Positions 10,136 to 25,372 are shown, counted from the stretch's first letter. The stretch: 64,000 nt of DNA from an uncultured archaeon (GCA_963799775.1 CAWCYD010000003.1:1216001-1280000); one strand, 5' to 3'. Made by a program: numbers and translations. Notes: a model not told the origin generated them from the letters alone.

Positions 10136-10429
10136 TCAGGTGTGAGCCGAGGTCTGGGTCGCGAGCAGCGCGCTGCGTCCGAGCAGCTTCTTGTCCAGGA
10201 TGAAGATGATCACCTGGTCGCCCACTTCGACGCCAGCGTCTCCGCCGATCGGCTGGACGACGAACTTCCCGCCTCCGGTTAGCCTCGCAACCGTCGCTTC
10301 GACGACCGCGACGCCGGTCTTGGACTTGAAGACCGTCGCCCTCTCCCTGCCCCCTCCGGCCCTGGACTCGTTTCTGCCAGTGTCGGACGTCCGTTCTCTC
10401 TCGATTTCTCTTTCTGTGTCTGTTGACAT
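10136..10429 (-). CDS. Small hypothetical protein, possibly AbrB-like
   Basis: GGKFVVQP...GVEVGDQVIIFI resembles a swapped-hairpin motif. Confidence 0.35.
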   Translation of the reverse strand: MSTDTEREIERERTSDTGRNESRAGGGRERATVFKSKTGVAVVEATVARLTGGGKFVVQPIGGDAGVEVGDQVIIFILDKKLLGRSALLATQTSAHT

Positions 10430-10606
10430 ATCAGGTCACTAGCGATCATATCGCAAGAGCGATTAAAACCCGGGTGACGATTCCCAGGATTGAGAATAGG
10501 GTCCGGAAGTCCTTTGAGAGATTGAATCGGACTGGGTGGTTCATCATTCGTAGATGACTCCTTTTGGACAATTACGGCCAAACAAAGTTCATAATGAGCT
10601 TATTAT

Positions 10607-10636
10607 TGGCGGGACCGGCAGGGTTTGATGCAAAAA
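10607..10636 (-). repeat. tRNA-Arg 3'-end repeat R1 (start of a type A arm)
   Basis: TGGCGGGACCGGCAGGGTTTGATGCAAAAA; compare 15011. Confidence 0.85.
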
Positions 10637-10700
10637 CGCAGCTAGAAGGTAGAATCCTGGAAGATTCCCCGCAATTGTCCTGGCGAACGAGAGGGGCGCA

Positions 10701-11012
10701 CTAAGGCTTCTTTATCCAGACCGCCGAATCCTCGACTTTGACCTGAAAGGTCGGCTCGGGCTTTTGTGCCGGACCAGCTACCACTTCCCCAGTCTTCATG
10801 TCGAACTTAGATCCGTGCCACGGGCATTGGATCACGGAACCTGTGAGCTTTCCCCTTCCAAGAGGCCCGCCCACGTGCGTGCATTTGTTCGCAACGGCAT
10901 ACATTTCGCCCTCTAGGTTGGCGACCACTACATCTATGCCGCTCACCTTCACCACCTTCATGGAGCCCACGGGAACTTCGGATGCTTTGGCGACCTCCTC
11001 GAACCCTTCCAT
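10701..11012 (-). CDS. Rieske [2Fe-2S] ferredoxin
   Basis: CTHVGG...CPWHGSKFD. Confidence 0.95.
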   Translation of the reverse strand: MEGFEEVAKASEVPVGSMKVVKVSGIDVVVANLEGEMYAVANKCTHVGGPLGRGKLTGSVIQCPWHGSKFDMKTGEVVAGPAQKPEPTFQVKVEDSAVWIKKP

Positions 11013-11112
11013 AACCTTCTTGCCATCCCGAGGATAGGTCGCCCGAGTAATTCTGCTTTTCCATCTGCTTGCCCGGTCGAATGCACGACGGAGGGTGAAA
11101 TACTAGGTGTTT

Positions 11113-11160
11113 TGGCGGGCCCGACAGGGCCCACCCCTGAATAGATTCTCAATGTGGAGT
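11113..11160 (-). repeat. tRNA-Arg 3'-end repeat R2 (type B arm)
   Basis: TGGCGGGCCCGACAGGGCCCACCCCTGAATAGATTCTCAATGTGGA. Confidence 0.85.
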
Positions 11161-11310
11161 CCCGGGCTCCACGCGGCGGGCAAGCCGTCAAGTCGCCGCA
11201 TCAAAATGACTACAAACTCGGCCATGGAATCGGCTCTCTCAAACGCCCGAGAAGCTTCTTCGATTGGCCGACTCTGAATTTCCAACCTTAGATGAGACGG
11301 GGATGTCGGC

Positions 11311-12357
11311 TCAGACTTTAGGAAGACTAGCGAAGCGCGACCGCTGGTAGCCTGCGAACACACCCTCGACCCCGGTCAAGACCACCATCACCCTGACCCT
11401 TCCGTGCATGTTCTCTTCGACCCTAGCACCCCAGACGATCTTCACTCCTGGTCGGAGAGCTGTCGTTATCCTCTCGCCCGCGGCTATGACCTCCTCAAGC
11501 CTTAGGTCGCTTCCCCCCGTTACGTGCACTAGCACTCCATACGACTTCGACGCATCGCGCAAGTCCAGGAGCCTACTTTCTATTGCCTTCATAGCCGCTT
11601 TCTCGACTCTTCCCTTACCAGAAGATTCGCTTACACCTATAGCGGCCAGCCCTCTTCGCTCCATTATCTCCTTCAGGTCCGAGTAGCTGATGTTGATGAG
11701 AGAAGCCGTGGTAATGGTCTCAGTGATGCCTTTCACAAATAGGCCGACCAGGTCGCTTGCTACTCCGAGCGCCTGCTCGAGAGGTAAATTACCTGCGACT
11801 TTGGAGAGCCTGTTATTGTCGATCGCGACCACCGTGTCGCAATACTCGCGAAGCTTCTCGAGACCCTTCCTGGCTTTTTTGTACCTGTATCTCTCAAAAG
11901 AGAAGGGAAGCGTGACGACGCCGATTTTCAGGATGCCTTCTCCTGGGAGCGCCTTCGCGAGCACGTTTATCGCGCCAGTACCAGTCCCTCCCCCCAAACC
12001 CGCACATAGGATGAGTATGCTCGACCCAGCAACCGCCTTTCTCAACTCCTGAAGACTCTCGTACGCCGCCTTTTCACCCACATCAGGGTATCCACCGGCA
12101 CCTTGACCGTGAGTGAGCTTCTCACCGATGAGAATCCTCCTGTCGGCTCTTGTCACGCTCAGGTGGACTGCGTCGGTGTTCGCGGCAATGAGTTTGCCTC
12201 CAGCCATGCCCTTCTCCTTTAACCAAGAAACAATGTTGCTACCGGCTCCACCCAAGCCAACGACGCAAACCTTGGGACGTGCGGCCATCATAGCCGCTAC
12301 TATCCTATCATCTTCCGACAAATCGTCGGATGCTGGATCTCCCTCCATAACATTCAC
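11311..12357 (-). CDS. ftsZ: Cell division protein FtsZ (divergent T7 loop)
   Basis: VVGLGGAGSN, AANTD, GQGAGG, GLGGGTGTGA, PFSFE, IDNNRL. Confidence 0.9.
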   Translation of the reverse strand: MNVMEGDPASDDLSEDDRIVAAMMAARPKVCVVGLGGAGSNIVSWLKEKGMAGGKLIAANTDAVHLSVTRADRRILIGEKLTHGQGAGGYPDVGEKAAYESLQELRKAVAGSSILILCAGLGGGTGTGAINVLAKALPGEGILKIGVVTLPFSFERYRYKKARKGLEKLREYCDTVVAIDNNRLSKVAGNLPLEQALGVASDLVGLFVKGITETITTASLINISYSDLKEIMERRGLAAIGVSESSGKGRVEKAAMKAIESRLLDLRDASKSYGVLVHVTGGSDLRLEEVIAAGERITTALRPGVKIVWGARVEENMHGRVRVMVVLTGVEGVFAGYQRSRFASLPKV

Positions 12358-12518
12358 GTCTTTCGAGTATCATTCATAAAGAATAAGCAATGTGCACGAT
12401 GTAAACGAAGCTGAAGTCTGTCCATCAATTCAGGTCATAGCCAGCTCCTTTCGGTCAGCTTGAGGTTCGAACCCAGCAGAGAGAGTTCGAGAGCAACGAA
12501 GGGTTTGGACTCGAACGG

Positions 12519-12601
12519 TGGCGGGCCCGGCAGGATGCGATTAGATAATTAAGCGAATCCGAGGCTGAGCAATTCGAGTCTCAAATTCGCTGCGACCGCA
12601 C
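12519..12601 (-). repeat. tRNA-Arg 3'-end repeat R3 (type C arm with 11-6-11 palindrome)
   Basis: TGGCGGGCCCGGCAGGATGCGATTAGATAATTAAGCGAATCC...TCAAATTCGCTGCGACCGCAC. Confidence 0.85.
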
Positions 12602-12895
12602 CTAACTCTCTCTTTTCAGTAGGCGCAGCCTACCTTGAGAAATCGACCTTAGGACTCCAGGAGACCCCTGAAAGAGATCTAACCGCCGCAAGAAATTTTA
12701 GGGGAGAATCACTGCAGCTAGAGTTGGACTTCCGCTTCGCCGCCTACGGCTCAAGGCATCCTAGTTCGGGGAAACCGAACTGCTAAGTGTGGCAAGTGAA
12801 AGGTAGTATTTGCAGTCAAGACCAAATTCACATTCACAGGGGCAAAGAGAGCGCACATTTTGTATCTCGCTCTGCTCAGCACTCGAGCCCTGACG

Positions 12896-13189
12896 CTAGA
12901 CTTGAGGCTCGATTTCCGCTTCCTTGACGAAGCTCTGGGCCTTCAGGGTCTTCAGAAGCTCCTCTGGAGTCACCTTTGCGTTGGCCATTTCCAGATAGAA
13001 GAGGTCGTACCCCGTCTTCTTGTCGTCCGAGCACTCGATTCCTCCCGCGAGAATATCGATGTTCCTCTCGCCCAATATCATGGCAATCTTGGCAAGAATC
13101 GAAGGGCGAGATTCGACCGTGAGGTAGAGGTCGAAGACCTTTTCGCCGGGGGGCGATACTACCCTCATCGACCTTAGCCGCTCCGACAT
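12896..13189 (-). CDS. Stand-alone ACT-domain protein
   Basis: LTVESRPSILAKIAMILGERNIDI, an ACT signature. Confidence 0.75.
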   Translation of the reverse strand: MSERLRSMRVVSPPGEKVFDLYLTVESRPSILAKIAMILGERNIDILAGGIECSDDKKTGYDLFYLEMANAKVTPEELLKTLKAQSFVKEAEIEPQV

Positions 13190-13276
13190 AAATCGGACTT
13201 GCCCATGGTAGGATTTAAGGGGAGCGGCTGCGAGATTGCGAATCCGGCTTTGACAGTCTAATTGAGCGTGAAAAGT

Positions 13277-13324
13277 TGGCGGGCCCGGCAGGGCCCGCGC
13301 CTGAACAGGTTCTGAAAGTGGATT
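13277..13324 (-). repeat. tRNA-Arg 3'-end repeat R4 (type B arm)
   Basis: TGGCGGGCCCGGCAGGGCCCGCGCCTGAACAGGTTCTGAAAGTGGA; abuts the vapC stop. Confidence 0.9.
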
Positions 13325-13702
13325 TCACTTTCCAATCTCTTTCTGCAGTAGCTCGGCCTGGCGCTTGTCGAACGTAGCGAGGTCTGAGGTTAGCTCTAGC
13401 GCTAGAGCGATGAATATCGCGTCGTATATCGAGCGGTGGCTCTTGGCCGCCAGAGAGTATCCATGCTTCATCAGTTCTTCCCCAGGACGAATCACCCGAA
13501 TTCTTCCCGATTCTACCAACCCATAGAGTATGGACACGTAGGGTACCCCGTCGCCCAGATCTTTTATCAGGAATTGATGCTTCCACACTGCGTTGACCGC
13601 TTCATACAGGGCCAAGTCGACCGTAATCAGAATGTCCTCTTCAAGCAGTTCCTTGCGCCTAAGAAGCCCCTCGACTATGTAGCTGCTGTCCGCAACCTTC
13701 AA
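13325..13702 (-). CDS. vapC: PIN-domain toxin VapC
   Basis: VADSS, LALYEAVNA, SIYDAIFIALA, LATFDKRQ. Confidence 0.9.
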   Translation of the reverse strand: MKVADSSYIVEGLLRRKELLEEDILITVDLALYEAVNAVWKHQFLIKDLGDGVPYVSILYGLVESGRIRVIRPGEELMKHGYSLAAKSHRSIYDAIFIALALELTSDLATFDKRQAELLQKEIGK

Positions 13703-13917
13703 CGTCTTCTGTCCTCGTTAATTCGCCTGACTTCTTCGGCGGTCGTCGTCCTAATCTCGTTACTCCGTTGGAGCTTCTCTAGCTTTCCGATGAGCTCGTC
13801 AGACTTCCTCGTGCTCAAGTAGAGTTCGAGCGCCTCTCTGACCGACTTTGAAAGCGCTCCGTGTTTGAGGAGCCTCTTCTTTTCTTCATCTGAAACCCGG
13901 ACGGTAATGGTAGGCAT
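13699..13917 (-). CDS. vapB: Ribbon-helix-helix antitoxin VapB
   Basis: MPTITVRVSDEEKKRL...SKSVREALE; overlaps the vapC start. Confidence 0.85.
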   Translation of the reverse strand: MPTITVRVSDEEKKRLLKHGALSKSVREALELYLSTRKSDELIGKLEKLQRSNEIRTTTAEEVRRINEDRRR

Positions 13918-13947
13918 GTCTTACTCTGCGTAAGACACTGTGTCTTA
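13918..13947. promoter_or_regulatory. Overlapping palindromic operators of vapBC
   Basis: GTCTTAC-N5-GTAAGAC and TAAGACA-N3-TGTCTTA between the ATG and the repeat. Confidence 0.6.
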
Positions 13948-13953
13948 AGTTTT

Positions 13954-14065
13954 TGGCGGGCCCGGCAGTTTCCGCACCAAAAATGGTGCTAGAAATGGTT
14001 CCGTTTCGCGGGTTCATGCCTCAATGGATTCGAACTCCCGAGGAGTCGGCTTGTCTCGCTCATTC
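13954..14065 (-). repeat. tRNA-Arg 3'-end repeat R5 (type A arm, ~112 bp)
   Basis: About 90% identical by eye to 21496-21606. Confidence 0.9.
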
Positions 14066-14097
14066 ATGCTTTCGCTCGAATCGATGTCAGGAAGCTC

Positions 14098-14379
14098 CTA
14101 TGCGTCAGGAAAGAATCTCCTCATGAACGCCATTATCTCTTCGCTCTGCCTCGGGTTGAGCGAGACCTGTAGACCGTAGGATGTCGGCTTGGGAACTACT
14201 GCACCCTGACGGACCAGCTGCTTCGCCATCTGCTCCACACGCTTCAGTCCGTGCTTTCCGAGTTCTGATTCCTTCCATCCTTTCTTGAGGTTATCGAGAG
14301 CTGTATGACTTGCTCCCCAGTTTCCTCTTTTGTGGAGCTTGAACAGGAGTGTCGCCTTGATATCATCGTCAGAAAGCAT
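14098..14379 (-). CDS. Small hypothetical protein (winged-helix-like)
   Basis: Clean 93-aa ORF divergent from an HTH gene; GNWGASHT and KPTSYGLQVSLNP. Confidence 0.6.
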   Translation of the reverse strand: MLSDDDIKATLLFKLHKRGNWGASHTALDNLKKGWKESELGKHGLKRVEQMAKQLVRQGAVVPKPTSYGLQVSLNPRQSEEIMAFMRRFFPDA

Positions 14380-14449
14380 AAGTTCACTTATGATACTTCG
14401 AAGGTTCTTATTTAAATACTCGCCAGGTTAGTTAGTTACAGGGAGAAAA

Positions 14450-14794
14450 ATGACATACAAGCCTGACGAGACATTGTTGTTGAAATACCTTGGAGCGAGC
14501 CCAACGCTTCGAATCATTGATTTTTTCCTGGACAACCCACTCTCTGACTACTCGAAGAACGAGATCGCGAAGAATCTGGCGATGAGCCGTGTGACGTTTT
14601 TCAAGTACTGGAAGCAGTTGGCGAAGTCCGGGGCTGTTAAGCCAACGAGAGAGATCGGAAGGGCAACTTTGTACAAGCTGGACAAGGAGAACGACGTGGT
14701 GAAGCAGACGATCAAGCTCGATATGACGCTTGCCAGAAAGTCGATGGAAAAAGCGGCCGAAGAATACAAGAAACCGATAACTATGCGAAGCTGA
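14450..14794 (+). CDS. Winged-HTH transcriptional regulator
   Basis: SPTLRIIDFFLDN...YSKNEIAKNLAMSRVT...IGRATLYKL. Confidence 0.8.
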   Translation: MTYKPDETLLLKYLGASPTLRIIDFFLDNPLSDYSKNEIAKNLAMSRVTFFKYWKQLAKSGAVKPTREIGRATLYKLDKENDVVKQTIKLDMTLARKSMEKAAEEYKKPITMRS

Positions 14795-14891
14795 ATTCAT
14801 ACCCTTTTTGCATCTCTTTCATTCCGTCCAGACCTCCTTTCCCTCTCGCGAGAGAACGACACGAAATCCAATCAGGCTGAGAATATACTAT

Positions 14892-14925
14892 TGGGCCGGA
14901 AGGGATTCGACCCCTTGACCTGCCG
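14892..14925 (-). repeat. 3' fragment of a different tRNA (Ile/Met-like), possible att remnant
   Basis: Reverse complement CGGCAGGTCAAGGGGTCGAATCCCTTCCGGCCCA has a T-stem, T-loop and acceptor strand; no 5' half is present. Confidence 0.7.
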
Positions 14926-15010
14926 AGAAATCTAGGTAATCGCGGGCATCCGGCTAGATAGAGCGTGTTTCAACCCCTAATGAGCGCATGCAGTCTACTT
15001 CCAGGTAGTT

Positions 15011-15095
15011 TGGCGGGCCCGGCAGGATTTGATGCAAAAATGGCGCCAGAAAGGGTTCCATTTCGCGGGTTCATGCCTCGATGGTTTCGAACCCG
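15011..15095 (-). repeat. tRNA-Arg 3'-end repeat R6 (type A arm; longest tRNA match)
   Basis: GCGGGCCCGGCAGGATTTGA identical to the tRNA into the T-loop, then type A sequence. Confidence 0.9.
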
Positions 15096-15125
15096 TGTTG
15101 GCTAGTGAATCCCTGAGCAGAGATG

Positions 15126-15578
15126 CTACAAAGCGTTGACTTGAAGGGGCTGAAGATGGGAGCTTCGACCGAATTTCGTTGCTAAGGTCTGACGAACCTT
15201 TCCTAGCCAAGCAGGAGATTGTTTGTATTTGCAGGATTGCAGGTTGTGCAGCCTGGCGAAGACCAAATATACGAAAGTCATCGTGCCCTTTCCTCCGGGA
15301 GCGCCGGTCATCATCATTGAAAAGACGGGCCCGGCCGGGAACAGACTAATCAGTTCTGGGAGCGCATTGGCTCCGCTGAGAACTTTTCTGTCTGGGAGCA
15401 CAATATGAAAGGACCGGTATCGGAGATTGCGGGGCACTGCGTCTAGCAATCCTGATGCATCAGCTATGTCCAGCGGGACAAAATCGACCTTCCGGCGAAT
15501 GTCTAAGATGGCCACGACCTGCTTGAACTTCGCACAGGGCCCGCAATCCGCGTCATAGGCCATGACATACCTGGACAA
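15126..15578 (-). CDS. DCC1-like thiol-disulfide oxidoreductase
   Basis: YDADCGPC motif, FHIVLPD...SGANA; start approximate. Confidence 0.8.
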   Translation of the reverse strand: MSRYVMAYDADCGPCAKFKQVVAILDIRRKVDFVPLDIADASGLLDAVPRNLRYRSFHIVLPDRKVLSGANALPELISLFPAGPVFSMMMTGAPGGKGTMTFVYLVFARLHNLQSCKYKQSPAWLGKVRQTLATKFGRSSHLQPLQVNAL

Positions 15579-15872
15579 GCAATTTCGCCTGCCAATTATT
15601 CTGACGACGGTCACATAAAAATATGCCCCGAGCCTGGATGGTTCAGGGACTGAGGGAGTCCCAGGCGCCCGAATCTCGGCAGCGCAGTAGAGGCTCCTTT
15701 CACGGCACTTTGTTCCCAAAGGCCTCTGTCAAAGCTTGAGGTCCCTCCTGCGGCCTCTCAAGGGTCGGGGCCTAAATCGAACTCAGACAATTGGGTACGC
15801 GGCTAGTGGAAAAAACGGTTAGACCATAATTCCGCCTCATTCTGACACAATACGCTCAAACGTGGCTATTGT

Positions 15873-15896
15873 TAGCGGGCCCGGCACGGCCCGCCA
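15873..15896 (-). repeat. tRNA-Arg 3'-end repeat R7 (type B-like hairpin)
   Basis: TAGCGGGCCCGGCACGGCCCGCCA. Confidence 0.8.
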
Positions 15897-15923
15897 CGCA
15901 TGGGTAGCAAATCCGGCTCGCAT

Positions 15924-16631
15924 TCAAGCGTTTAGTTTTGCAATTTCGCCGTCCCAAGTTGCGGTGAGAACCCCCTCTCTGCTCAAGTAAAACACTATGC
16001 CGTCCAGATATGGTATCCACTTGGTCTCCTTGAATCGTCCGCCAAAGATGGTCTCTATCAGGACTATCAGCCCGTAATCGTGCCCCACCCACAGCCGCAG
16101 GAGCGGGGCTTGACGGGCCTTCAAGTCCTTGCTAACGCTGCTTACGACGAACTGCTTTACCTCCGAAGGGGGTTTCATCATCCCGAAAGGAAGGCTCCCG
16201 TCCAGCCATTCTCTAAGGAATGGCAGTCCTCCCACCTTTCCCCTATGCGACTCCATCGCATTTCTGTCCTTGGCGAAAAAATGGGTCACGGCCAAGGAAT
16301 CGTCTATTCCAATGTCTGATATGGTACCAGAATTCATCTGTGAGTAGCCATTCATGATGCCGGTCCCAGTCTCTACGCAGCGGGGGACGGGACTATAGCC
16401 TACGACGAGGTTCAAACCTCTAGGGAGCGACTGGCCGAATCTCTTCGATTCGCTGTGCCCGTGAGGAGTCAACCCTGCGACCATATTCGGATTGGCGACC
16501 TCGCCTCTTCGACCTTGATCCCTAACGGAATGTCTGAGGATGATCCCCATCCGATCGGACTCCATGGAATTGATAACGTCAATCAGTCGGTCTCCGTAAG
16601 GGATTTCTTCGGCGGGCCTCTCAGGTTCCAA
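15924..16631 (-). CDS. Histidine phosphatase family protein
   Basis: ILRHS, LTPHG, SPVPRCVETG, VGHD. Confidence 0.85.
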   Translation of the reverse strand: MEPERPAEEIPYGDRLIDVINSMESDRMGIILRHSVRDQGRRGEVANPNMVAGLTPHGHSESKRFGQSLPRGLNLVVGYSPVPRCVETGTGIMNGYSQMNSGTISDIGIDDSLAVTHFFAKDRNAMESHRGKVGGLPFLREWLDGSLPFGMMKPPSEVKQFVVSSVSKDLKARQAPLLRLWVGHDYGLIVLIETIFGGRFKETKWIPYLDGIVFYLSREGVLTATWDGEIAKLNA

Positions 16632-16724
16632 CTCTCAAACGTCCGATAGGGCATGAATATGAACCATGTTCAATTTCCTATCCCATGCCCAAGAGGTTCG
16701 AATCCATTTCTGGGGAAGTTTTGG

Positions 16725-16766
16725 TGGCGGGCCCGGCAGGATTTGCTTAACTAATTAAGCGACACC
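16725..16766 (-). repeat. tRNA-Arg 3'-end repeat R8 (type C arm)
   Basis: TGGCGGGCCCGGCAGGATTTGCTTAACTAATTAAGCGACACC. Confidence 0.9.
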
Positions 16767-16796
16767 TTGATCTCGGTGTTTCGATTCCCCGAGAAA

Positions 16797-16970
16797 TCAA
16801 TCATTGGAGCGAACAGAATGTTGGCCCAACCTTACCAGAATCAAGAGGCAAGAAATGAAGCCGCATCCTAGTATCACGACGACCGATTCAGACGCGGTCC
16901 CGTTGAGCTCTATCGACGTTGCGACCATCGTGAAAGCCCAAACCAACGAAATGGCAACGTTTGCGGTCAT
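16797..16970 (-). CDS. Small two-TM peptide (57 aa, not in the ORF track)
   Basis: Manual translation MTANVAISLVWAFTMVATSIELNGTASESVVVILGCGFISCLLILVRLGQHSVRSND. Confidence 0.4.
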   Translation of the reverse strand: MTANVAISLVWAFTMVATSIELNGTASESVVVILGCGFISCLLILVRLGQHSVRSND

Positions 16971-17201
16971 GAACCTAGTGGGGATGCCGCTGTTCTTCGA
17001 CCCGGTCTCTGAGCGACTCGCGGGGTTCTTGGGCCGACGAGCCTTAGGCTAAAAGTTAGCGTCAATCGCGGCAACGCTCGAACAAAGTCAGACCGACCAA
17101 AACAGGTCGTTCAAATCTCTGCGACCGCACACCAATCACATCAGACGGCCGGAATCCTCGAAATCCTCTTTGGGAACCGATTCTCCGAGGGCGGACCGCG
17201 G

Positions 17202-18374
17202 ATGAAGCGAAAAGGAGTCTGCTACGATGTAGGGCGGGTCATGCTTGGGGCCGATTGGCGACCTAAATTCGACCCTCGAGCCGTCCACCGGGAACTCGAA
17301 ATCATCAAGACCGACATGCACTGCAATGCCGTTAGAATATGCGGCCTCGACATCGATAGGCTCATGACCGCGAGTGAGGACGCCCTGTCACAAGGGCTGG
17401 AGGTCTGGCTATCTCCCGAGATGTGGGACAAAAGCCAGGATGAGACCTGCGAATACATCGCGAGGGCGGCGGAGCGGGCGGAGGGGCTCCGTCAACGGTG
17501 GCCCGGAAAGCTGGTCTTCAGTGTGGGCTCCGAGCTGAGCCTCTTCTCTCAGGGGATGATCGAGGGCAAAAACGTCTTTGACCGGATATCCCGTTCCTCG
17601 TTCTTTAGCGATATATCGGCCGGGACGTACAACGGCCCGCTCAATCTGTACCTGTCGAATCTGAGCGAGGCCGCGAAGAAGTCGTTCCGTGGGCCGCTCA
17701 CCTACTTCTCCTTGCCGTTCGAAGCTGTCGACTGGAAACCGTTCGATTTCGTCGGGGTAGACCATTACAGGGACGCGCAGAACAAAGTCGCCTATGGTCG
17801 GATGATAAGCAAGTACAACGCATTCGGCAAGCCTGTGATTGTAGGGGAGTTCGGGTGCTGCACTTTCCGGGGCGCGGAGCTGCTCGGAGGAAACGGCTTC
17901 ATGATAACCTTCGGGATGATTGAAGGCCTCCTCGGGCCAAACCAGAAGCTTCCCAAGATGTTCTTGGACATGGCGCATGTCCCGCCCCGAGCCGACGGGC
18001 ACTACATCCGTGACGAGGAGCTCCAGGCACGCGAGCTGGTCGATCAGCTGGGGGTGCTCGACGCAGCGGGGGTTGAGGGCGCGTTCGTGCAAACCTTCGT
18101 GGTTCCTAACTCCCCGTACCGCTCGGACCCCAGGTACGACACCGACATGGCGAACTTTAGCCTGGTGAAGAGCTTCCAGGAGGCAGAAACGGCGGAAGAG
18201 TTCAGGAGACAGACCATCCGTGGGGCCAGGGAAGTGATTGGGGTGGACCTCGACCCCCGCGTTCTGGATGGTTTTTCAGGTCGAATGGGCGAGCATGGAG
18301 TGACATATCCGGATCTGCCGTGGGAGCCGAAGGAGTCTTTCAGGGCGGTAGCGGAGTATTATGCGAAACATTAG
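17202..18374 (+). CDS. TIM-barrel glycoside-hydrolase-like protein (family often annotated 'abortive infection protein')
   Basis: KGVCYDVG, HCNAVRICG, VGSEL, GKPVIVGEFG, WEPKESF. Confidence 0.75.
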   Translation: MKRKGVCYDVGRVMLGADWRPKFDPRAVHRELEIIKTDMHCNAVRICGLDIDRLMTASEDALSQGLEVWLSPEMWDKSQDETCEYIARAAERAEGLRQRWPGKLVFSVGSELSLFSQGMIEGKNVFDRISRSSFFSDISAGTYNGPLNLYLSNLSEAAKKSFRGPLTYFSLPFEAVDWKPFDFVGVDHYRDAQNKVAYGRMISKYNAFGKPVIVGEFGCCTFRGAELLGGNGFMITFGMIEGLLGPNQKLPKMFLDMAHVPPRADGHYIRDEELQARELVDQLGVLDAAGVEGAFVQTFVVPNSPYRSDPRYDTDMANFSLVKSFQEAETAEEFRRQTIRGAREVIGVDLDPRVLDGFSGRMGEHGVTYPDLPWEPKESFRAVAEYYAKH

Positions 18375-18480
18375 GAAAAAATAACTTCGTGTTGAATCCT
18401 GTTGGAACCCGACGCAATCTGAACTTAAAGTTCAAGTTGCTGCCACCGCACAGTTCGAATTCAACAGACCGCGTTTCGGA

Positions 18481-18563
18481 GGATTCGCTTAGTGATTTAA
18501 GCGGGCCCAGGCAAGAATTCGGCTCGTCGCAATCTAGGTGAGCGTGAAAGGTTGGCAGGCCCC
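18481..18563 (-). repeat. Compound junction: 11-6-11 palindrome plus two degenerate tRNA-end repeats (R9, R9b)
   Basis: GGATTCGCTTA-GTGATT-TAAGCGGGCCCAGGCA and TGAGCGTGAAAGGTTGGCAGGCCCG (compare 13263-13287). Confidence 0.75.
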
Positions 18564-20792
18564 GATGGTCTAGCGCCGAATGTCATGTTCTTTCGTGTGA
18601 GGAAGGAAATGATGAGAAGGGAGGCGAGAAGCAGAGGAACGAGCATTACTGTCGGGAACTCCGGAACGGTTGACGATGTCGTAGTCTGGGGATCGCCGAT
18701 GACCAAAGGCGAACCCGTTAGACTGGCGACCGGGATATCTCCGCAGACCATGCCAAGGGAGCTGTTCGTGCTGGCTGAATCCGATATTGCCGCAGCAGCG
18801 CTCCAAGCACCGGCCGAGTAATATTCGATCAAGGTTTTCGAACCTACATACGCGCTCGACACGCATGTGTGCGCCGTCCCCCCTGTAATCCCGGAGATGC
18901 TGAGGTCGTAGAACTTCAAGGCCGCACCGCTTGCGGGGCCCAGAGAAACTGTGCCCGTGTTAGAAGGTTGAGCAGCCAGCTGCTGTGTGTTTATGGTTGC
19001 TGTGGCGCCGCTCGTTCCGGAGACCCCGACGCTGATTCCCGTGGTCGGGAATGACTGGGTCGGGACCGAACCTGAGGAAACGGCCGCGGAACCTGCTTGG
19101 GTCGACTGGCATGTGTCGACGACCGGGTTGGGCGACACCGGAGTCGTTGAATCGTTTCTGAAAGTCCCGTTACAGGCGTTGTTTATGGTGCCGGAGTTCG
19201 AGATTGTCGCTAGGTCGAAGTTGGTGAAGGAACCGGAGTTGGCCACAGTACCCCCCATCATGTTGGTTAGAGTGGCACCGACGAGCGCGCCACTGGCGAG
19301 CGCGCCGTTTATGAAGGTGGCACCGTAAACGTTCGTGATCACTCCGGAGGCGTTGTTGTTCAGAGTGCTCCAGACTCGGACGAAGCCGCCCGCGTTGTTC
19401 GTTATGGTCCCGCTGTTGGATGTATGATATGCAAATGTCACACTGCCCAGGTTGGATATAGTCCCAAAGTTGGCAACGACAGAGTCGAAAGATATTGTTC
19501 CTGTGTTGGAGATCATGCCCTTGTTGACGATGTTGCCGCCCGCATCATTGGTATCGTAGGTGAAGGTGCCGGAATTGGCGATTGTGCCCGTGTTGGTGTT
19601 GGTGAAGCTCTGCTCGTTCGTCATCGTGGCGCCCTGGTTGTTGTTGATCGTGCCCGAGTTGGTCGCGATGCCTGTCCCCGGTGATCCGTAGAAGCCAAGG
19701 CTGCCTCCCTTGTTGTTGGTGATGGTTCCCGCATTGTTGAAATTGTAGAAGCTGTTGAAAGTGCCGCTGTTGGTGATTGTTCCCCCTGCGTTGTTGGTGA
19801 CTGTGGACGGCCCAAAAGCGGTAATGATGCTGCCGGAGTTTGTTATCTGCCCTCCTGGGTCGCCCGTGCTGTCTGGACCAGCCTGCGTCGTAATGAAACC
19901 GTCGCACTCGATATTGGCGCCGGCGTCCACGTCGACCTTCCCGCTGTCGCTGACGTACAAGGTGACGCCGGTCGGGAGGTACAGCTCAGCGCTCGGCGAT
20001 ATCTCGAGCACGGTTGCGATTCCGGCGTAGCCTACCGTGAGAGTGCTCCCTGACATCATGTTAAAGGTCCCCAGTGCTGGTAAAGGTGCCAGAAAAGTAG
20101 GGCGTGCCCAATGGCGCGGTCGAGCCCGTCACCTTTACCGTCTGGCCTGAGTACAGCTCCATCCAGCCGCCGTTGTTGATCGTGCCGGGGTTGAGGAGAA
20201 CCCCCGTTCCGAGTCCGTAGTTATCGTCCTGCAGGGCACCGCCCAGGAGGTTGTCAATCGTCCCCTGGTTGGAGAAGGTTCCCCCGCCCGCGTAGATCAG
20301 ACCGCCGGCGCTGTTCGTGAGCGTCCCCGTGTTCGTGAACGTGCAGTCGCTCGATATCGTCCCTGCGTTCGTTATGGTGCCTGAGCTTGTTACCGTGCCA
20401 CAGACGGTGCTGGCGATAGCGCTCTGGATCTGCCCCGTGGAAGTGATCTTCATGACTCCGGAGTTGGTAATCGTGCCCGCGGAGTCCGACATGATGGCAG
20501 ATATCGTGAATGTCGCACCTGGGCCCACGGTAAGAGTCGCCCCGGGGAATATCGACAAGGAGGTTCCCGCCGGGAGCTGCCCGCTCGCTGCAACATAGCA
20601 GTCGACTGTAGCGTTGGACCACGATCCTCCCAGGCTCGCGCAATCGGCGGTGCTTTGGTGCAGGGAGCCAGGATTGTTGCCGTTGAGATTGTATGAGACT
20701 TGGGCACCCGCGTCAGGAGGCAGAAACGCAAGGATTGACACAAACGCCAGAATCACTGCAAGAACCAGTGGGGCTTTGTGAGAAACCCTCAA
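18497..20792 (-). CDS. Secreted beta-solenoid (GTITN-repeat) surface protein with PEF-CTERM anchor; +1 frameshift near 20070
   Basis: Signal peptide, NxGTIxN repeats, VPEFP-TM-RK tail; deleting one G of GGGG joins the two ORFs (TGTFNMMSG). Confidence 0.8.
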
Positions 20793-20833
20793 CCGCTCGT
20801 AATTTCAAGATTCAGTCTATTAACCATGATGTC

Positions 20834-20883
20834 TGGCGGGCCCAGGCAGAGCCCACCCCTGAACAGGTTCTCAAAGCGAATTC
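20834..20883 (-). repeat. tRNA-Arg 3'-end repeat R10 (type B arm)
   Basis: TGGCGGGCCCAGGCAGAGCCCACCCCTGAACAGGTTCTCAAAGCGAA. Confidence 0.85.
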
Positions 20884-20904
20884 CTAAGGATTGCAAGGAC
20901 TGGT

Positions 20905-21409
20905 TTAGTAGAACCCGGAGGCGACCATGAAGACCGATGTGACGATGAGAAGGAGTACCGTCAGGGTGGCCAGGTCAGAGGCTCGTTTTGAGCGTCTTTG
21001 GAAAGTCCGGAGGTGGCTGATGTTGACCGGCGGCCTGCATTTCCTTTATCATTTTTATGGCTCTCAGTTGGATTGGGACGGCAACGAATTCCGATATCAA
21101 GAAAGCAATGAAACCGATGGCGAGCCCGATTGTGAGATACATGCCGAAAGAGGTCGAGAAGGAGAGAACCTTGAAGTCCCCCCCGGAGTAGTTATAGAGG
21201 AAAAGCACTCCGAACAGTATGGTTGTGCCTGCCGTGATTTGGAAGAACCGGACTACTCTGGGGACGACCTTCACGAGGAACTCTCCCGAGCTTGCGGGTG
21301 AAAGCTTCGCGAGAGCCGGTCCTACCACAAAGGCGAACATGATCCCGCCCCCCAGCCATCCAATTGCTGAAATGACGTGGAGCCAGGCGAGAATCGCGGT
21401 GAGAAGCAA
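20905..21409 (-). CDS. Four-TM membrane protein (CopD/DUF4149-like), frameshift near 20990
   Basis: WLHVISAIGWLGG...FVVGPAL; fourth TM continues in another frame. Confidence 0.65.
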
Positions 21410-21495
21410 GTGGGAACAAAATCTTGTCCGACTATATGAATATGATTTCTTGGGCTTCTTCGCCGCGTTCTGAAAATTACCGCTGAGGAGAAATT

Positions 21496-21606
21496 TGGGG
21501 GCCCGGCAGTTTCCGCACCAAAAATGGTGCTAGATTTGGTTCCGTTTCGCGGGTTCATGTCTCGATGGATTCGAACTTCCGAGGAGTCGGTTCGGCTCAC
21601 TCATTC
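21496..21606 (-). repeat. tRNA-Arg 3'-end repeat R11 (type A arm)
   Basis: Near-identical to 13954-14065; contains the stop codon of the upstream NTase gene. Confidence 0.9.
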
Positions 21607-22323
21607 TCCCTTTCCAGCCAGCATTCCCTTTACTGTCTTCAAATGTTCAAGGGTCAGCTTGATTTGCGAAATTATGTCGATTCGCAGGCGGAATTCTGCC
21701 TTAAGCGAGGATGGGAACTCCTTGCTTCCAAGCCTGTTGATGCCGGAATCCAGTTGCTTTGCCAGCTTGGCCCTAGTCCCAGTGTTAGTAAAATCAGCCA
21801 CCGCATTCCAGTCTGCCTGTTCTCCCAGCATTACGATGTCTCTCATGTCCGTATTTCTTGCCGGGTGCAACTTCATCGCAATTAGCAATTCCTTCTTCGG
21901 AACCATGGCCATAGTAGAATCGGTTACCCCGACGACATTGGCCTCAGTGGAACTCCGCATCAGGAGTTCGTAACTCCATTCCCCTCCAGTATCCCTGCAC
22001 ACAACACTATTGATTGACAGATCGACGGAAACCCTTCGTCCTCCGATCAGTTTTACGTACTTGACAGTTTTCGCACCGTAGGTTCCCTTGCCCACGTTCG
22101 ACGCTCTTGCCTTCCTGTATCCTTCACCAGTCAATACTTTTCCAAATGATTCGAGATTCTTTTCAGAAATGACAATATCGCAGTCGACCGACAACCGATG
22201 AGACGCCAGAGCGCTGACCGCATAACCGCCAATCACCACGAACTTGCCCGAATGCGAATGGAGAACCCTAACTATTCGAATAACTTCAGTTTCCCTCGCA
22301 GTCAGATCGGCGGCTTGCGACAT
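21601..22323 (-). CDS. Nucleotidyltransferase toxin, AbiEii-like (type IV TA)
   Basis: FVVIGGYAV...HRLSVDCD, LIAMKL...DMRDI. Confidence 0.75.
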   Translation of the reverse strand: MSQAADLTARETEVIRIVRVLHSHSGKFVVIGGYAVSALASHRLSVDCDIVISEKNLESFGKVLTGEGYRKARASNVGKGTYGAKTVKYVKLIGGRRVSVDLSINSVVCRDTGGEWSYELLMRSSTEANVVGVTDSTMAMVPKKELLIAMKLHPARNTDMRDIVMLGEQADWNAVADFTNTGTRAKLAKQLDSGINRLGSKEFPSSLKAEFRLRIDIISQIKLTLEHLKTVKGMLAGKGE

Positions 22324-22327
22324 TCGA

Positions 22328-22939
22328 TCACTCGTCGTATTTTATTCCAAGACCGAGCTTGTATTCTTCGTCGAGCATCTCAAGAGCCGGCTCGTACGCG
22401 TAGATATTTTTCTTGGCGAATTCAATGGTCTCTTTGAGCGGCTCAACCCTCAACCCTTCGACCGTTTCTGATTCGATTCTCTTTGCTGGATGCATCAGAT
22501 AGAAGACCCCGAAGACAGTCTCTTTTGGAATCATATCGACAAGGAATGATTTCTTGCCATTGTTTCTGAAGAATCGTTTCCACTTTTCCACGTCTTTTTC
22601 GATGACCTTCAAATGGATTGGATAGAAACCGAAGAACCTATCCACATTATACCCTCCCCTAGTCCAAGCGAATACTGCATCCACGTCTGACAGTGCGTAT
22701 GGGTATTCTGCCTTCTTCAGAAGCTCGTATGCACCGCCTACGTCATTTCTCATCGTCACGTAATCATCTACCGACTTGACCCTGTACTTTCCGTATTCCA
22801 GATGCTCGAGCATCCCCTTCTTCGCCATGTCGTGCAATACCTTTCGGGGATTAGGGCTGGAGAACGTTGCGGCAAACTCTCCGCTGGTGAACTCCCTCCT
22901 CCACTTGCCGAGGATTGCCCAAAGTTCATAGTACGACAT
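22328..22939 (-). CDS. AbiEi-like antitoxin with N-terminal wHTH
   Basis: RKVLHDMAKKGMLEHLEYGKY; lies 4 bp upstream of the NTase gene. Confidence 0.65.
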   Translation of the reverse strand: MSYYELWAILGKWRREFTSGEFAATFSSPNPRKVLHDMAKKGMLEHLEYGKYRVKSVDDYVTMRNDVGGAYELLKKAEYPYALSDVDAVFAWTRGGYNVDRFFGFYPIHLKVIEKDVEKWKRFFRNNGKKSFLVDMIPKETVFGVFYLMHPAKRIESETVEGLRVEPLKETIEFAKKNIYAYEPALEMLDEEYKLGLGIKYDE

Positions 22940-23104
22940 AATGTTACTATGGTGGTTACATCTTATAAAGATGGTGTATCAGGCATATCAAGCGACTTAC
23001 TCTGTCGGCTTCGCTCATTCCCCCTTTCCCATATCTGATTCCAAAGCGAGATAGCCAGTGTCAAGCTCATATCCTTAGAGAAGTAACGACAAAGCAGGGA
23101 TCGA

Positions 23105-23578
23105 ATGGTAGGCAACGGAGGAAGTAGGCGAAGATTCCTAAAGTACGCGGCGGTATCAGCCATGGGACTTGCAGCGGTAGGTACCGGGCTTTACTACTCA
23201 GGCAGATTCTTGCCGCCACCGGCCGAAGCATCTTCAACTAGTGAACAGACTTCAAGTAACTCAACTTCAGCATCTTCCGCTACCAGCTTCGACCCGATTG
23301 AGTACATCCAAAATGACATTCTCGACAATCTTCCAGAATACAATTCTCTCCCATTAGCAAGCCAAGCCGCGGCAATACAAACAAACAATGTGGTAGTCAA
23401 CACTATGGGTAAGGGTGATTTGGGGGCTTACGATAGGAACAAGCAACGTGTCTATACGATTTTATCGAATCAATATGATTATTGGAAAGATGGGAAATCA
23501 CCAGAGGTACAATTCATCGATCTGCAAAGGCCAGACGGCACTTTCATAAACTTGTATGGAAATTCCCCAAAAGTTTGA
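23105..23578 (+). CDS. Tat-exported protein, probably truncated
   Basis: SRRRFLKY twin-arginine signal, Ser/Thr linker; AT-rich. Confidence 0.55.
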   Translation: MVGNGGSRRRFLKYAAVSAMGLAAVGTGLYYSGRFLPPPAEASSTSEQTSSNSTSASSATSFDPIEYIQNDILDNLPEYNSLPLASQAAAIQTNNVVVNTMGKGDLGAYDRNKQRVYTILSNQYDYWKDGKSPEVQFIDLQRPDGTFINLYGNSPKV

Positions 23579-23723
23579 TTTTGCTATAAAGCTGACAATG
23601 GCGCAAAAATTCCGCCACCCACAGCAATATCAGAGATCCTCCAACTTCGGACTGAAGGAATCTTGAAATAGTTTAATTCGTCTTAATTCTGACTAAATAG
23701 GTGAATAACGGGGGTAGTTTTAG

Positions 23724-23798
23724 CGGGCCCGGCAGGATTTGAACCCGCGACACCGGGGTCCGAAGCCCCGTGCCCTATCCGTGCTAGACTACGGGCCC
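23724..23798 (-). tRNA. tRNA-Arg(TCG), no intron, CCA not encoded (followed by CTA)
   Basis: GGGCCCG acceptor, anticodon arm CGGGG-CTTCGGA-CCCCG, T-arm GCGGG-TTCAAAT-CCTGC. Confidence 0.95.
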
Positions 23799-23823
23799 GA
23801 ACTAAGGCTGGCTCGTGCAGTTA

Positions 23824-24864: not shown

Positions 24865-24963
24865 GTGAGGCCGCGACGGCCCGACGAGTTCTAAAGCCTT
24901 TGTGCGGTCGGGCCGCCAACGCCCGTCGCTGGCTTAAGTAATTCAGGGGCGGGCGAGACGCAG

Positions 24964-25362: not shown

Positions 25363-25372
25363 AACCCTTATT

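What the first reader, a model, noticed from the sequence alone, without database searches (positions are those of the whole stretch)
10607..23798. Integron-like, tRNA-anchored gene-cassette array: about 12 tRNA-Arg 3'-end repeats punctuating small cassettes, with no integrase
Seen: the tRNA-Arg(TCG) 3' end (+ strand TGGCGGGCCCGGCAGG) recurs in direct orientation at about 10607, 11113, 12519, 13277, 13954, 15011, 15873, 16725, 18501, 18553, 20834 and 21496, ending at the intact tRNA (23724-23798). Intervals are mostly 0.5-2.3 kb and hold unrelated cargo: Rieske ferredoxin, ftsZ, ACT, vapBC, an HTH pair, DCC, histidine phosphatase, a GH-like enzyme, an adhesin, a 4-TM protein, an AbiE-like TA pair and a Tat protein. 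Most genes are co-oriented with the tRNA, and several stop codons abut or lie inside a repeat (13325, 18497, 21601). Established: tyrosine integrases target tRNA 3' ends and tandem integration leaves att junctions, but such units normally carry an integrase and are much larger. Inference: minimal non-autonomous cassettes are added one after another at the tRNA by a recombinase acting in trans, a tRNA-based analogue of an integron in an archaeon.
Basis: partly seen in the sequence, partly recalled or inferred. Interest (0 to 1): 0.93.

Follow-up and report, generated by a model that had tools for sequence, protein, structure and literature searches.

The report
tRNA-anchored array of integrase-less gene cassettes
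Next to a tRNA-Arg gene of a soil thaumarchaeon lies a row of about eleven one- or two-gene cassettes, each bounded by a copy of the tRNA's 3' end, and related archaea carry some of the same cassettes in other orders and places, so they look like small mobile units moved by integrases encoded elsewhere.

Summary
The tRNA-Arg(TCG) 3'-end 16-mer gives 13 hits in the window against 1.37 expected. In the 2.47-Mb genome, 9 of 10 copies with at most 1 mismatch lie in this 13-kb stretch.

The intervals hold intact, unrelated genes, with no integrase or integrase remnant.

Three cassettes (vapBC, an extra FtsZ, a histidine-phosphatase-like gene) recur in other genomes. Their ends fall on the repeat and their neighbours differ. 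One copy sits directly behind an intact tRNA-Arg(TCG). They are 86-92% identical between species whose flanking core DNA is 72-81% identical.

In relatives, a divergent tyrosine-integrase family sits beside the same repeat. In two genomes it lies on an element of at least 12 kb that is 100% identical and ends exactly at the repeat.

This is not a true integron: there is no IntI, and only 3 of 11 folded sites form a hairpin that beats shuffles. It most resembles tandem accretion of att-bounded, integrase-less elements (bacterial CIMEs, tycheposon islands), taken to single-gene scale.

Recombination in trans is inferred, not shown. My literature searches found no description of such arrays.

The parts
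23723..23798 (-). Intact tRNA-Arg(TCG). Its 3' end (23721-23736 on the plus strand) is the proximal copy of the repeat core and the presumed attB.
   Evidence: ARAGORN; Rfam RF00005, 55.8 bits.
10607..10622 (-). Repeat core O1 (1 mismatch), the distal end of the dense array.
10701..11012 (-). Cassette 1 cargo: Rieske [2Fe-2S] ferredoxin.
   Evidence: Pfam PF00355, E 2.5e-21.
11113..11162 (-). Core O2 (1 mismatch) with a 'minihelix'-type arm. Together they form a 9-bp inverted repeat.
   Evidence: family D4; z = -2.3.
11311..12357 (-). Cassette 2 cargo: an extra FtsZ paralogue. The block 11106-12486 recurs in G011 and G022 at 91% and in G017 at 89%.
   Evidence: Pfam.
12519..12602 (-). Core O3 (exact), a 'type-3' arm, and an inverted tRNA-Met-like 3' fragment at 12582-12602 on the plus strand.
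12896..13189 (-). Cassette 3 cargo: small ACT-like protein (below the Pfam cut-off).
   Evidence: Shared with G017 and G013:C18.
13277..13324 (-). Core O4 (exact) with a minihelix-type arm that abuts the PIN stop codon.
   Evidence: z = -4.3. Contig loose ends at 13274 and 13277.
13325..13917 (-). Cassette 4 cargo: vapB-like gene plus PIN (vapC-like) toxin-antitoxin pair. The cassette runs from just after CCA at 13953 to the core O4.
   Evidence: Pfam PIN. Same boundaries in G017, G008, L047 and L048.
13954..14073 (-). Core O5 (1 mismatch) with the 120-nt 'D1' arm. The same arm occurs at 15010-15130 and 21494-21614.
14098..14800 (-). Cassette 5 cargo: two small ORFs (93 and 122 aa) with no family hit. 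A paralogous pair lies at C3:877172-879588.
14892..14925 (-). About 33 nt matching the 3' end of another tRNA, the gene at C3:1349006-1349106. That gene has a family integrase beside it.
15011..15130 (-). Core O6 (exact; identity to the tRNA extends about 22 nt) with a D1-type arm.
15126..15719 (-). Cassette 6 cargo: DCC1-like thiol-disulfide oxidoreductase.
   Evidence: Pfam PF04134.
15873..15905 (-). Core O7 (TAG variant, 2 mismatches) with a short minihelix-like arm.
15906..16740 (-). Cassette 7: histidine-phosphatase-like gene (15924-16631), a 94-nt upstream arm and core O8 (16725-16740, exact). The whole block recurs in 9 other places in the genus.
17111..18451 (+). Inverted cassette: a 390-aa ORF (17202-18374) flanked by tRNA-Met-like 3' fragments at 17111-17131 and 18434-18451 on the plus strand. 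A copy of the ORF, 96% identical, lies at C2:211268-212417.
18501..18568 (-). Two degenerate cores (18501-18516 and 18553-18568) inside a block of about 120 nt (18440-18562) that is conserved next to cores in at least 8 genomes of the genus.
   Evidence: (D11).
18497..20792 (-). Cassette 9 cargo: a 520-aa ORF and a 243-aa ORF with haemagglutinin-type repeats (adhesin-like). The two are in different frames and 1 nt apart.
   Evidence: The internal 22-nt repeats are family D2.
20834..20884 (-). Core O10 (1-base insertion) with a minihelix-type arm.
20975..21409 (-). Cassette 10 cargo: 144-aa membrane protein (weak DUF2269 match).
21495..21614 (-). Core O11 (3 mismatches) with a D1-type arm. The stop codon of the next gene lies in the far end of the arm.
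21601..23578 (.). The cassette nearest the tRNA: a nucleotidyltransferase-like ORF (21601-22323, minus), a 203-aa ORF (22328-22939, minus) and a Tat-signal protein (23105-23578, plus).

Best explanation
This is an accretion array at the attB of tRNA-Arg(TCG). At least eleven small, integrase-less integrative cassettes lie in a row. Each consists of an upstream arm, one to three genes, a downstream arm, and a copy of the tRNA's 3'-terminal att core (13-22 bp, including CCA).

The proposed mechanism has three steps.
1. A tRNA-targeting tyrosine integrase, encoded elsewhere, recombines the core on a cassette with the core at the tRNA or at any junction in the array.
2. Cassettes are thereby inserted, excised singly or in blocks, and reshuffled.
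3. They pass between species, probably carried alongside larger integrase-bearing elements that use the same site.

The integrase could come from a larger element at the same site, as seen in relatives. It could also be one of the four family members at other tRNA sites in this genome.

Shown here: the repeats and their restriction to this locus; the absence of an integrase; cassette ends that coincide with the core in several genomes; different neighbours; higher between-species identity than the core genome; and an integrase family sitting beside the same core.

Inferred: catalysis in trans, circular intermediates, the crossover point, and the vehicle of transfer.
For: Repeats:
- 13 hits against 1.37 expected.
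- 9 of 10 genome-wide copies with at most 1 mismatch lie in the array.
- All are co-oriented with the intact tRNA.

Cargo:
- The genes are unrelated and intact.
- The five PF00589 proteins of the genome lie elsewhere.
- tblastn with those five integrases against 9001-25000 gave only noise, best E = 0.08.

vapBC cassette. In 5 of the 6 copies I read (G000, G017, G008, L047, L048), homology starts right after ...GCCGGGCCCGCCA. The neighbours differ.
- Upstream: three different arm types, and in L048 the intact tRNA-Arg(TCG) itself.
- Downstream: G008 diverges right after the next CCA.

Histidine-phosphatase-like cassette. The block 15906-16741 occurs in 9 other places in the genus at 86-92% identity.
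- One copy lies between tRNA-Arg(CCT)-type fragments in this same genome, at C3:46162-46991.
- In L029 it lies 94 nt behind an intact tRNA-Arg(CCG).

FtsZ cassette. G011 and G022 share it at 91%, with the left end at the core (q707 and q714, core at 714). G017 shares FtsZ-ACT-vapBC at 89%, and that block ends inside core O5.

Housekeeping flank. The 20 kb on the other side of the tRNA is 72-81% identical to G017, G008 and G006, with one 88% stretch.

Integrase-bearing element. G011 and G017 share an element of at least 12,000 bp at 100% identity. It carries an integrase of about 424-470 aa. Identity stops exactly after ...GCCCGCCAA, and beyond that point the two genomes carry different cassette arrays. 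The FtsZ cassettes of those two genomes are only 88% identical to each other.

Integrase family.
- 266 clusters at E <= 1e-5. Sources name members 'site-specific integrase' of Nitrososphaerales or Bathyarchaeia, and 6 of the 120 listed carry PF00589.
- A member lies beside the core or the tRNA in G007 and G015 as well.
- In G000, members lie beside tRNA-Met, beside the tRNA at C3:1349006, and beside a 3' fragment of that tRNA.
- Fragments of those same two tRNAs occur inside this array.

Other arrays and other data.
- A second array holds 7 tRNA-Gln 3' ends on C2, carries unrelated cargo, and has a family integrase at its end.
- The arm beside the integrase in the 12-kb element resembles the minihelix arms of the cassettes; this is my reading of the sequences.
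- One soil-metagenome contig joins 13324 to 15910. Two contigs break at 13274 and 13277.
Against: - No excised circle or empty junction was seen. Only assembled contigs of other soil samples could be laid, not raw reads.
- Only 3 of the 11 intervals have several independent contexts with core-coincident ends.
- The far ends of two blocks stop 18-33 nt short of the next core: the FtsZ right end at q2087-2091, and the phosphatase left end at q5507-5519.
- The same cargo carries different downstream arms in different places. The phosphatase has three arm types and vapBC has two. A strict 'cargo plus its own site' cassette does not predict this; deletion or other recombination is needed.
- Homology of the 390-aa ORF is confined to the ORF.
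- The closest G000 homologue of the Arg-site integrase is frameshifted just after the catalytic-Tyr region. No intact Arg-specific integrase is identified in this genome, which is 82% complete.
- The cores nearest the tRNA are the most degenerate. That is not what simple newest-next-to-the-tRNA accretion predicts.
- All genomes are metagenome assemblies. The 100% identical 12-kb stretch lies at contig ends in both genomes, so cross-binning cannot be excluded.
Confidence: 0.6

Rival explanations
1. Ordinary decayed island. Large integrase-bearing elements integrated one after another at the tRNA. Each then lost its integrase and most genes by deletion. The intervals are immobile remnants, and sharing between genomes reflects inheritance or transfer of whole islands.
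For: - Tandem integration and integrase loss are the accepted view for archaea (passages read). The same holds for tycheposon islands and CIMEs.
- Integrase-bearing elements do use this site in relatives.
- Cassette arms resemble the arm beside that integrase.
- The same cargo has different arms, as independent deletions would give.
Against: - None of the 11 intervals holds an integrase fragment.
- The ORFs are intact.
- The same cassette ends recur in up to 9 places with different neighbours. These include positions directly behind intact tRNA-Arg(TCG) and tRNA-Arg(CCG) genes, and beside three different tRNA-Arg cores.
- In G007, a 2.9-kb piece in which the integrase searches found nothing lies between the tRNA and an integrase-bearing element. 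On the usual model it arrived later.
Confidence: 0.22
2. Shuffling without a dedicated recombinase. The short cores act as microhomology for general recombination between arrays and paralogous loci.
For: - Several arrays with related cores exist in one genome.
- The two copies of the 390-aa ORF look like gene conversion limited to the ORF.
Against: - Cores of 13-22 bp are very short for homologous recombination (established knowledge, not tested here).
- Breakpoints fall at one position, after CCA.
- An integrase family is physically linked to these cores.
Confidence: 0.08
3. A canonical integron, or a cluster of attC sites lacking an integrase, as reported for other archaea.
For: A tandem array of short, co-oriented ORFs separated by repeats. 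It holds one pair with a PIN toxin domain and a second candidate pair, and no local integrase.
Against: - No tyrosine recombinase lies beside the array.
- The repeats are copies of a tRNA 3' end.
- Only 3 of the 11 folded sites fold better than shuffles (z -1.6 to -4.3), and 7 show no hairpin at the core.
- Archaeal integrons are described as having bacterial-type attC folding and IntI (passages read).
Confidence: 0.02
4. The repeats are RNA elements, not recombination sites. On the gene strand, the minihelix-type copies would give each mRNA a 3' end that mimics a tRNA acceptor stem ending in CCA, for processing or stability.
For: - Four copies form a 7-9-bp acceptor-like hairpin followed by GCCA, directly downstream of genes.
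- The repeats encode CCA, although this genome's own tRNA gene does not.
Against: - 7 of 11 copies have no such fold.
- There is no Rfam tRNA-like hit apart from the true tRNA.
- This reading does not explain breakpoints between genomes at the core, or the linked integrases.
Confidence: 0.03

Closest known systems
CIMEs (cis-mobilizable elements) and site-specific tandem accretion with ICEs/IMEs in Streptococcus and other bacteria
   Same: Elements that keep attL and attR but have no integrase. They sit in tandem at the 3' end of a tRNA or other gene, and are thought to be moved by the integrase of a neighbouring element (passage read in PMC5704250).
   Different: CIMEs are described as decayed ICEs or IMEs, usually one or two per site and several kb long. 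Here there are about 11 units of 0.5-2.3 kb with 1-3 intact genes each, in an archaeon, and the units recur across species as discrete modules.
Tycheposon islands of Prochlorococcus
   Same: Islands next to tRNA genes, built by repeated integration of tyrosine-recombinase elements. New elements push older ones inward, and partial tRNA copies are scattered through the island (passages read in bioRxiv 10.1101/2020.12.28.424599).
   Different: That paper reports fragmented integrases among the remnants and 1-2 elements per genome. Here no integrase fragments are found, partial tRNAs occur about once per kb, and the units are single genes. The integrase family is different: archaeal and mostly below Pfam detection.
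Integrated mobile elements of Thaumarchaeota (Krupovic et al. 2019)
   Same: Same phylum. att sites are short (median 17 bp), more than half lie in tRNA genes, and tandem reuse of a site is noted (passages read in PMC6563490).
   Different: The passages I read describe integrase-bearing elements. Arrays of integrase-less single-gene cassettes do not appear in them. I did not read the whole paper or its supplements.
Integrons, including those reported in Archaea (Ghaly et al. 2022)
   Same: Works alike in outline: a tandem array of short, mostly co-oriented cassettes separated by recombination sites, a toxin-antitoxin cassette, and turnover cassette by cassette.
   Different: No IntI and no attC-type folded sites. 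The sites are double-strand tRNA att cores. The anchor is a tRNA gene, not attI. At least some cassettes appear to carry their own upstream regions; this last point is inference.

Membership tests
Integron (IntI/attC) | An integron integrase gene (a tyrosine recombinase with the IntI-specific extra domain) beside the array. | tested here: not met
   The five PF00589 hits of the genome all lie elsewhere. tblastn against the array gave only noise. I did not test the IntI-specific domain of the distant integrases.
Integron (IntI/attC) | attC sites: imperfect palindromes that fold as single strands. | tested here: not met
   Of 11 sites folded as DNA, 4 show a hairpin at the core, with z = -2.3, -4.3, -1.6 and +0.3. 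The other 7 show none. I did not run a formal attC model.
Integron (IntI/attC) | Tandem, mostly co-oriented, short cassettes that differ between relatives. | tested here: met
   14 of 16 ORFs lie on one strand. Cassette content and order differ in G011, G017, G013 and G008.
tRNA-targeting integrative elements in tandem (accretion; CIME-like) | Direct repeats of the 3' part of a tRNA gene bound every unit, with the intact tRNA at one end. | tested here: met
tRNA-targeting integrative elements in tandem (accretion; CIME-like) | A tyrosine integrase that uses the same att core. | tested here: met
   In relatives only. The integrase lies beside the core in G011 and G017, where the element ends exactly at the core. 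It also lies beside the core or tRNA in G007 and G015. Family identity rests on source names, PF00589 in 6 of 120 listed members, and 24% identity (E = 6e-26) to a PF00589-positive G000 protein.
tRNA-targeting integrative elements in tandem (accretion; CIME-like) | The units lack their own integrase but keep both att sites. | tested here: met
tRNA-targeting integrative elements in tandem (accretion; CIME-like) | Excision to a circle and re-integration that depend on an integrase. | not testable with these tools
   Only contigs of other soil samples were available. One contig joint (13324 to 15910) and breaks at 13274 and 13277 are compatible with this but are not proof.
REP/MITE-type dispersed repeat | Many copies spread over the genome, independent of a tRNA locus. 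| tested here: not met
   9 of 10 plus-strand copies with at most 1 mismatch lie in the array. The only minus-strand copy is a tRNA gene.

The most novel reading that the evidence does not exclude
Soil Thaumarchaeota have a cassette-capture system that works like an integron but is built from tRNA att sites. A lineage-specific family of tyrosine integrases, with several tRNA specificities (Arg, Gln, Met and the tRNA at C3:1349006), would insert, excise and exchange single-gene, integrase-less cassettes at tRNA 3' ends. The resulting arrays would serve as a shared pool of accessory genes, paralogues such as FtsZ, and toxin-antitoxin pairs.
Probability: 0.4. Interest if true: 0.85.

Novelty: new variant of a known kind. 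Interest (0 to 1): 0.72.

Why it matters
Archaeal integrated elements are normally found by looking for an integrase, so integrase-less cassettes like these are missed.

If the cassettes really move one by one, soil Thaumarchaeota would have a simple, tRNA-based route to gain, duplicate and swap single genes. That would bear on how these lineages gain extra gene copies. Gene duplication is the title theme of one paper on thaumarchaeal genome expansion that I saw only in a search listing. This genome holds at least four FtsZ-like genes, and one of them is a cassette.

It would also be a second, independent solution to the problem that integrons solve in bacteria. It is directly testable, because the sites, the cassettes and candidate integrases are now defined.

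Tried and rejected
Rfam at a permissive threshold found only the true tRNA in 9000-25500. The repeats are not tRNA-like RNAs by that test.

Scanning viral contigs for the 16-mer gave 31 hits. By my rough estimate that is about what chance gives in so large a collection. Most lie in DNA of 62-75% G+C, and four are another organism's tRNA. None of the 31 carries the array-linked integrase family or any of the cassette proteins; L055 has one weak match (E 1.6e-6) to a different PF00589 integrase of this genome.

Sequence search of the integrase against solved structures gave nothing. Pfam gave no integrase hit on any of 5 family members. PHROGs gave one weak integrase hit among 2 members.

The sequencing-run search found only one soil run holding 0.17 of the sampled words, kept as contigs, plus two runs holding next to none. 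Parts of the array without cover in these runs say nothing.

The metagenome scan for the vapBC upstream junction returned only 2 contigs. It did not find the junction expected of a circular vapBC cassette.

NCBIfam added only the Tat signal.

A dispersed repeat, GGGTTCATTGCGCCTCC, looked at first like another tRNA-type core. Read on the other strand, it is the conserved ribosome-binding site and start of a multi-copy gene family.

I considered that CCA in the repeats means they derive from mature tRNA by reverse transcription. I dropped this because relatives encode CCA in the tRNA gene itself.

Supplementary files of the papers were not opened. Element lists in the supplements of PMC6563490 might include small elements that I could not see.

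Full report
**What is there**

The window is G000:C3:1216001-1280000 of a 2.47-Mb, three-contig assembly with 59% G+C. Record titles of close relatives call them Thaumarchaeota or Nitrososphaerales from soil and peat. I did not establish the family.

One tRNA gene lies in the window: tRNA-Arg(TCG) at 23723-23798 on the minus strand.

The reverse complement of its 3' end, TGGCGGGCCCGGCAGG, gives 13 hits at up to 3 mismatches, against 1.37 expected. 18553 and 20834 are degenerate copies, supported by shared flanks. 18501 is a weak copy seen by eye.

Genome-wide, 9 of 10 plus-strand copies with at most 1 mismatch lie in this stretch. The only minus-strand copy is tRNA-Arg(TCT). So the motif is not a dispersed repeat.

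**Anatomy**

All copies point the same way as the tRNA. Read on the tRNA strand, each unit has four parts:
- the core, ending in ...CUGCCGGGCCCGCCA;
- an upstream arm;
- one to three genes;
- a downstream arm, followed by the next core.

The downstream arms fall into three families.
- 'Minihelix' arms (11113, 13277, 15873, 20834, and more weakly 18553) form a 7-9-bp inverted repeat together with the core.
- A 120-nt 'D1' arm occurs at 13954, 15011 and 21495, and partly at 10607.
- A 'type-3' arm occurs at 12519 and 16725.

Only the minihelix type folds. Three of its four copies beat shuffles, at z -1.6 to -4.3.

The cargo is unrelated from one interval to the next:
- a Rieske ferredoxin;
- an FtsZ paralogue;
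- an ACT-like protein;
- a PIN gene with a small upstream gene (vapBC-like);
- two small unknown ORFs;
- a DCC1-like oxidoreductase;
- a probable histidine phosphatase;
- a 390-aa unknown ORF;
- an adhesin-like pair;
- a membrane protein;
- a nucleotidyltransferase-like pair;
- a Tat-signal protein.

Fourteen of the 16 ORFs share the tRNA's strand.

No tyrosine recombinase is present. The genome's five PF00589 proteins lie elsewhere. tblastn with them against the array gives only noise.

**Are the intervals discrete units?**

For three intervals, yes.

vapBC. In G000, G017, G008 and two metagenome contigs, homology begins directly after CCA (AAAACTTAAGACAC...). It runs to the next ...GCCGGGCCCGCCA. 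What lies upstream differs:
- a D1 arm in G000;
- type-3 arms in G017, G008 and L047;
- in L048, the intact tRNA-Arg(TCG) at the orthologous locus.

Downstream, G008 diverges right after CCA. A sixth copy, in G013, is 75% identical, has another arm type, and has no Arg core upstream.

The phosphatase-like cassette. The block 15906-16741 recurs in 9 other places in the genus at 86-92% identity. One copy lies between tRNA-Arg(CCT)-type fragments elsewhere in this genome. In L029 it lies 94 nt behind an intact tRNA-Arg(CCG). Homology ends inside the core, after TGGCGGGCCCGG; beyond that point the arms differ.

The FtsZ cassette. It is 91% identical in G011 and G022, with its left end at the core. 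G017 shares FtsZ-ACT-vapBC at 89%, and that block ends inside the next core. In G011, FtsZ sits next to the phosphatase cassette. In G000 the two are 4 kb apart.

**Signs of transfer**

The 20 kb on the housekeeping side of the tRNA is 72-81% identical to G017, G008 and G006, with one 88% piece. The cassettes are 86-92% identical.

The gene on the tRNA's other side (IF-2B family) is syntenic in the genus. Nothing downstream of the tRNA is. Many relatives have the tRNA with no array behind it; G009, G014, G001, G010, G015, G003 and the G017:C7 copy are examples.

**The integrase**

G011 and G017 share at least 12,000 bp at 100% identity. The stretch carries a 424-470-aa protein about 110 nt from a core. 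Identity stops exactly after ...GCCCGCCAA, and beyond it the two genomes carry different cassette arrays. Their shared FtsZ cassettes are only 88% identical, so the element is a recent arrival. Cross-binning is the alternative, because the stretch lies at contig ends in both genomes.

What the protein is:
- It has no Pfam hit itself.
- It has 266 relatives at E <= 1e-5. Sources name them 'site-specific integrase', and 6 of the 120 listed carry PF00589.
- It is 24% identical over 437 residues to a PF00589-positive protein of G000.

Members of the family also lie beside the core in G007 and beside the tRNA in G015.

G000 has four members:
- one at C2:214742-216197, 70-75% identical to the Arg-site enzyme but frameshifted just after the catalytic-Tyr region;
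- three at 33-35% identity, which lie directly behind tRNA-Met, behind the tRNA at C3:1349006, and behind a 3' fragment of that tRNA.

**The phenomenon is general, and the array is a mosaic**

Fragments of those same two tRNAs lie inside the array.
- About 33 nt of the C3:1349006 tRNA sits at about 14892-14925.
- Three tRNA-Met-like 3' fragments lie on the opposite strand. Two of them flank the one large gene that is inverted, the 390-aa ORF.

A second array on contig C2 has 7 copies of the tRNA-Gln 3' end within 15 kb. It carries unrelated cargo (SDR, TetR, MarR, ABC ATPase, ADH and others), has no integrase inside, and has the frameshifted family integrase at its end.

Extra copies are of tRNA 3' ends. 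The matches to 5' ends were other tRNA genes or short matches of 15-19 nt that fall in no array.

**Reading**

The simplest account is tandem accretion of att-bounded, integrase-less mini-elements at the tRNA, with gain, loss and exchange by site-specific recombination at the core, catalysed in trans. This matches what is known in these respects:
- short thaumarchaeal att sites, mostly in tRNA genes, and reuse of sites in tandem;
- integrase-less integrated elements in archaea;
- CIMEs and accretion in bacteria;
- tycheposon islands.

What differs is scale and modularity: about eleven units of 0.5-2.3 kb, no integrase debris, and the same units recurring across species with the same ends. In function this resembles an integron. 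It fails the tests for membership of that family.

Four literature searches turned up no description of such arrays. That covers only the held library, and I read passages, not whole papers.

**Caveats**
- No circles or empty sites were observed.
- Only 3 of the 11 intervals have multi-context support.
- The far ends of two blocks stop 18-33 nt short of a core.
- One cargo can carry different arms.
- The copies of the 390-aa ORF share only the ORF.
- The cores nearest the tRNA are the most degenerate.
- No intact Arg-specific integrase was found in this genome, which is 82% complete.
- All genomes are metagenome assemblies.

**Verdict**

This is a new variant of a known kind, with interest 0.72.

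Noticed in passing
window 7255-9808 (+): A P-type cation ATPase appears as two overlapping ORFs in different frames (7255-8241 and 7847-9808). The second starts at profile position 76 of the E1-E2 ATPase domain. This is a possible frameshift or assembly error.
   Followed up: no
G000 C3:558520-559551, 995342-996343, 1909458-1910855, and window 11311-12357: At least four FtsZ-like genes, 56-67% identical in protein to the cassette copy. The one at 1909458-1910855 matches in two pieces and may be interrupted.
   Followed up: no
G000 C2:195424-210037 (L042): A second array: 7 co-oriented copies of the tRNA-Gln 3' end, 0.8-5 kb apart, on a different contig from the tRNA-Gln gene that ARAGORN found. 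Its arm families parallel those of the Arg array.
   Followed up: partly
G000 C3:1424706, 1427274, 1428749: The 3' end of tRNA-Ala(GGC) is repeated twice, 2.5 and 4 kb downstream of the gene. This may be a third small array.
   Followed up: no
L035 plus L018:1-7001 (G011:C5:1-12000), identical to G017:C1:1153345-1165344: The 12-kb integrase-bearing element encodes a ThiF-family protein, a trypsin-like peptidase and a DUF7002 protein. It could be defence-type cargo, but I did not analyse it.
   Followed up: partly
window 18440-18562: A non-coding block of about 120 nt next to two degenerate cores is conserved at 75-85% beside cores in at least 8 genomes of the genus. The 520-aa ORF reads through it, so its last ~20 codons may be an artefact of the junction.
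   Followed up: no
window 17203-18352 and G000 C2:211268-212417: The two copies of the 390-aa ORF are 96% identical, but the homology stops at the ORF ends. On C2 a partial Arg-type core (TAGCGGGCCCGGC) abuts the start codon. Most genomes of the genus hold one copy at 80-88%.
   Followed up: partly
G000 C3:1205518 and 1205930: Two weaker Arg-core-like sequences lie about 21 kb left of the dense array, one followed by a T-arm-like stretch. An older, larger island may therefore extend left of 10607 and include the ATPase.
   Followed up: no
G000 C3, about 20 places (e.g. 1355613, 1613966, 1767043, 1868987): A dispersed motif, GGGTTCATTGCGCCTCC. Read on the other strand, it is a conserved ribosome-binding site plus start (GGAGGCGCAATGAACCC) of a clustered multi-copy gene family.
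   Followed up: partly
G000 genome: ARAGORN finds only 18 tRNAs without the intron option and 37 with it. Many tRNA genes carry introns, some at non-canonical positions, and several calls with very long introns look doubtful.
   Followed up: no
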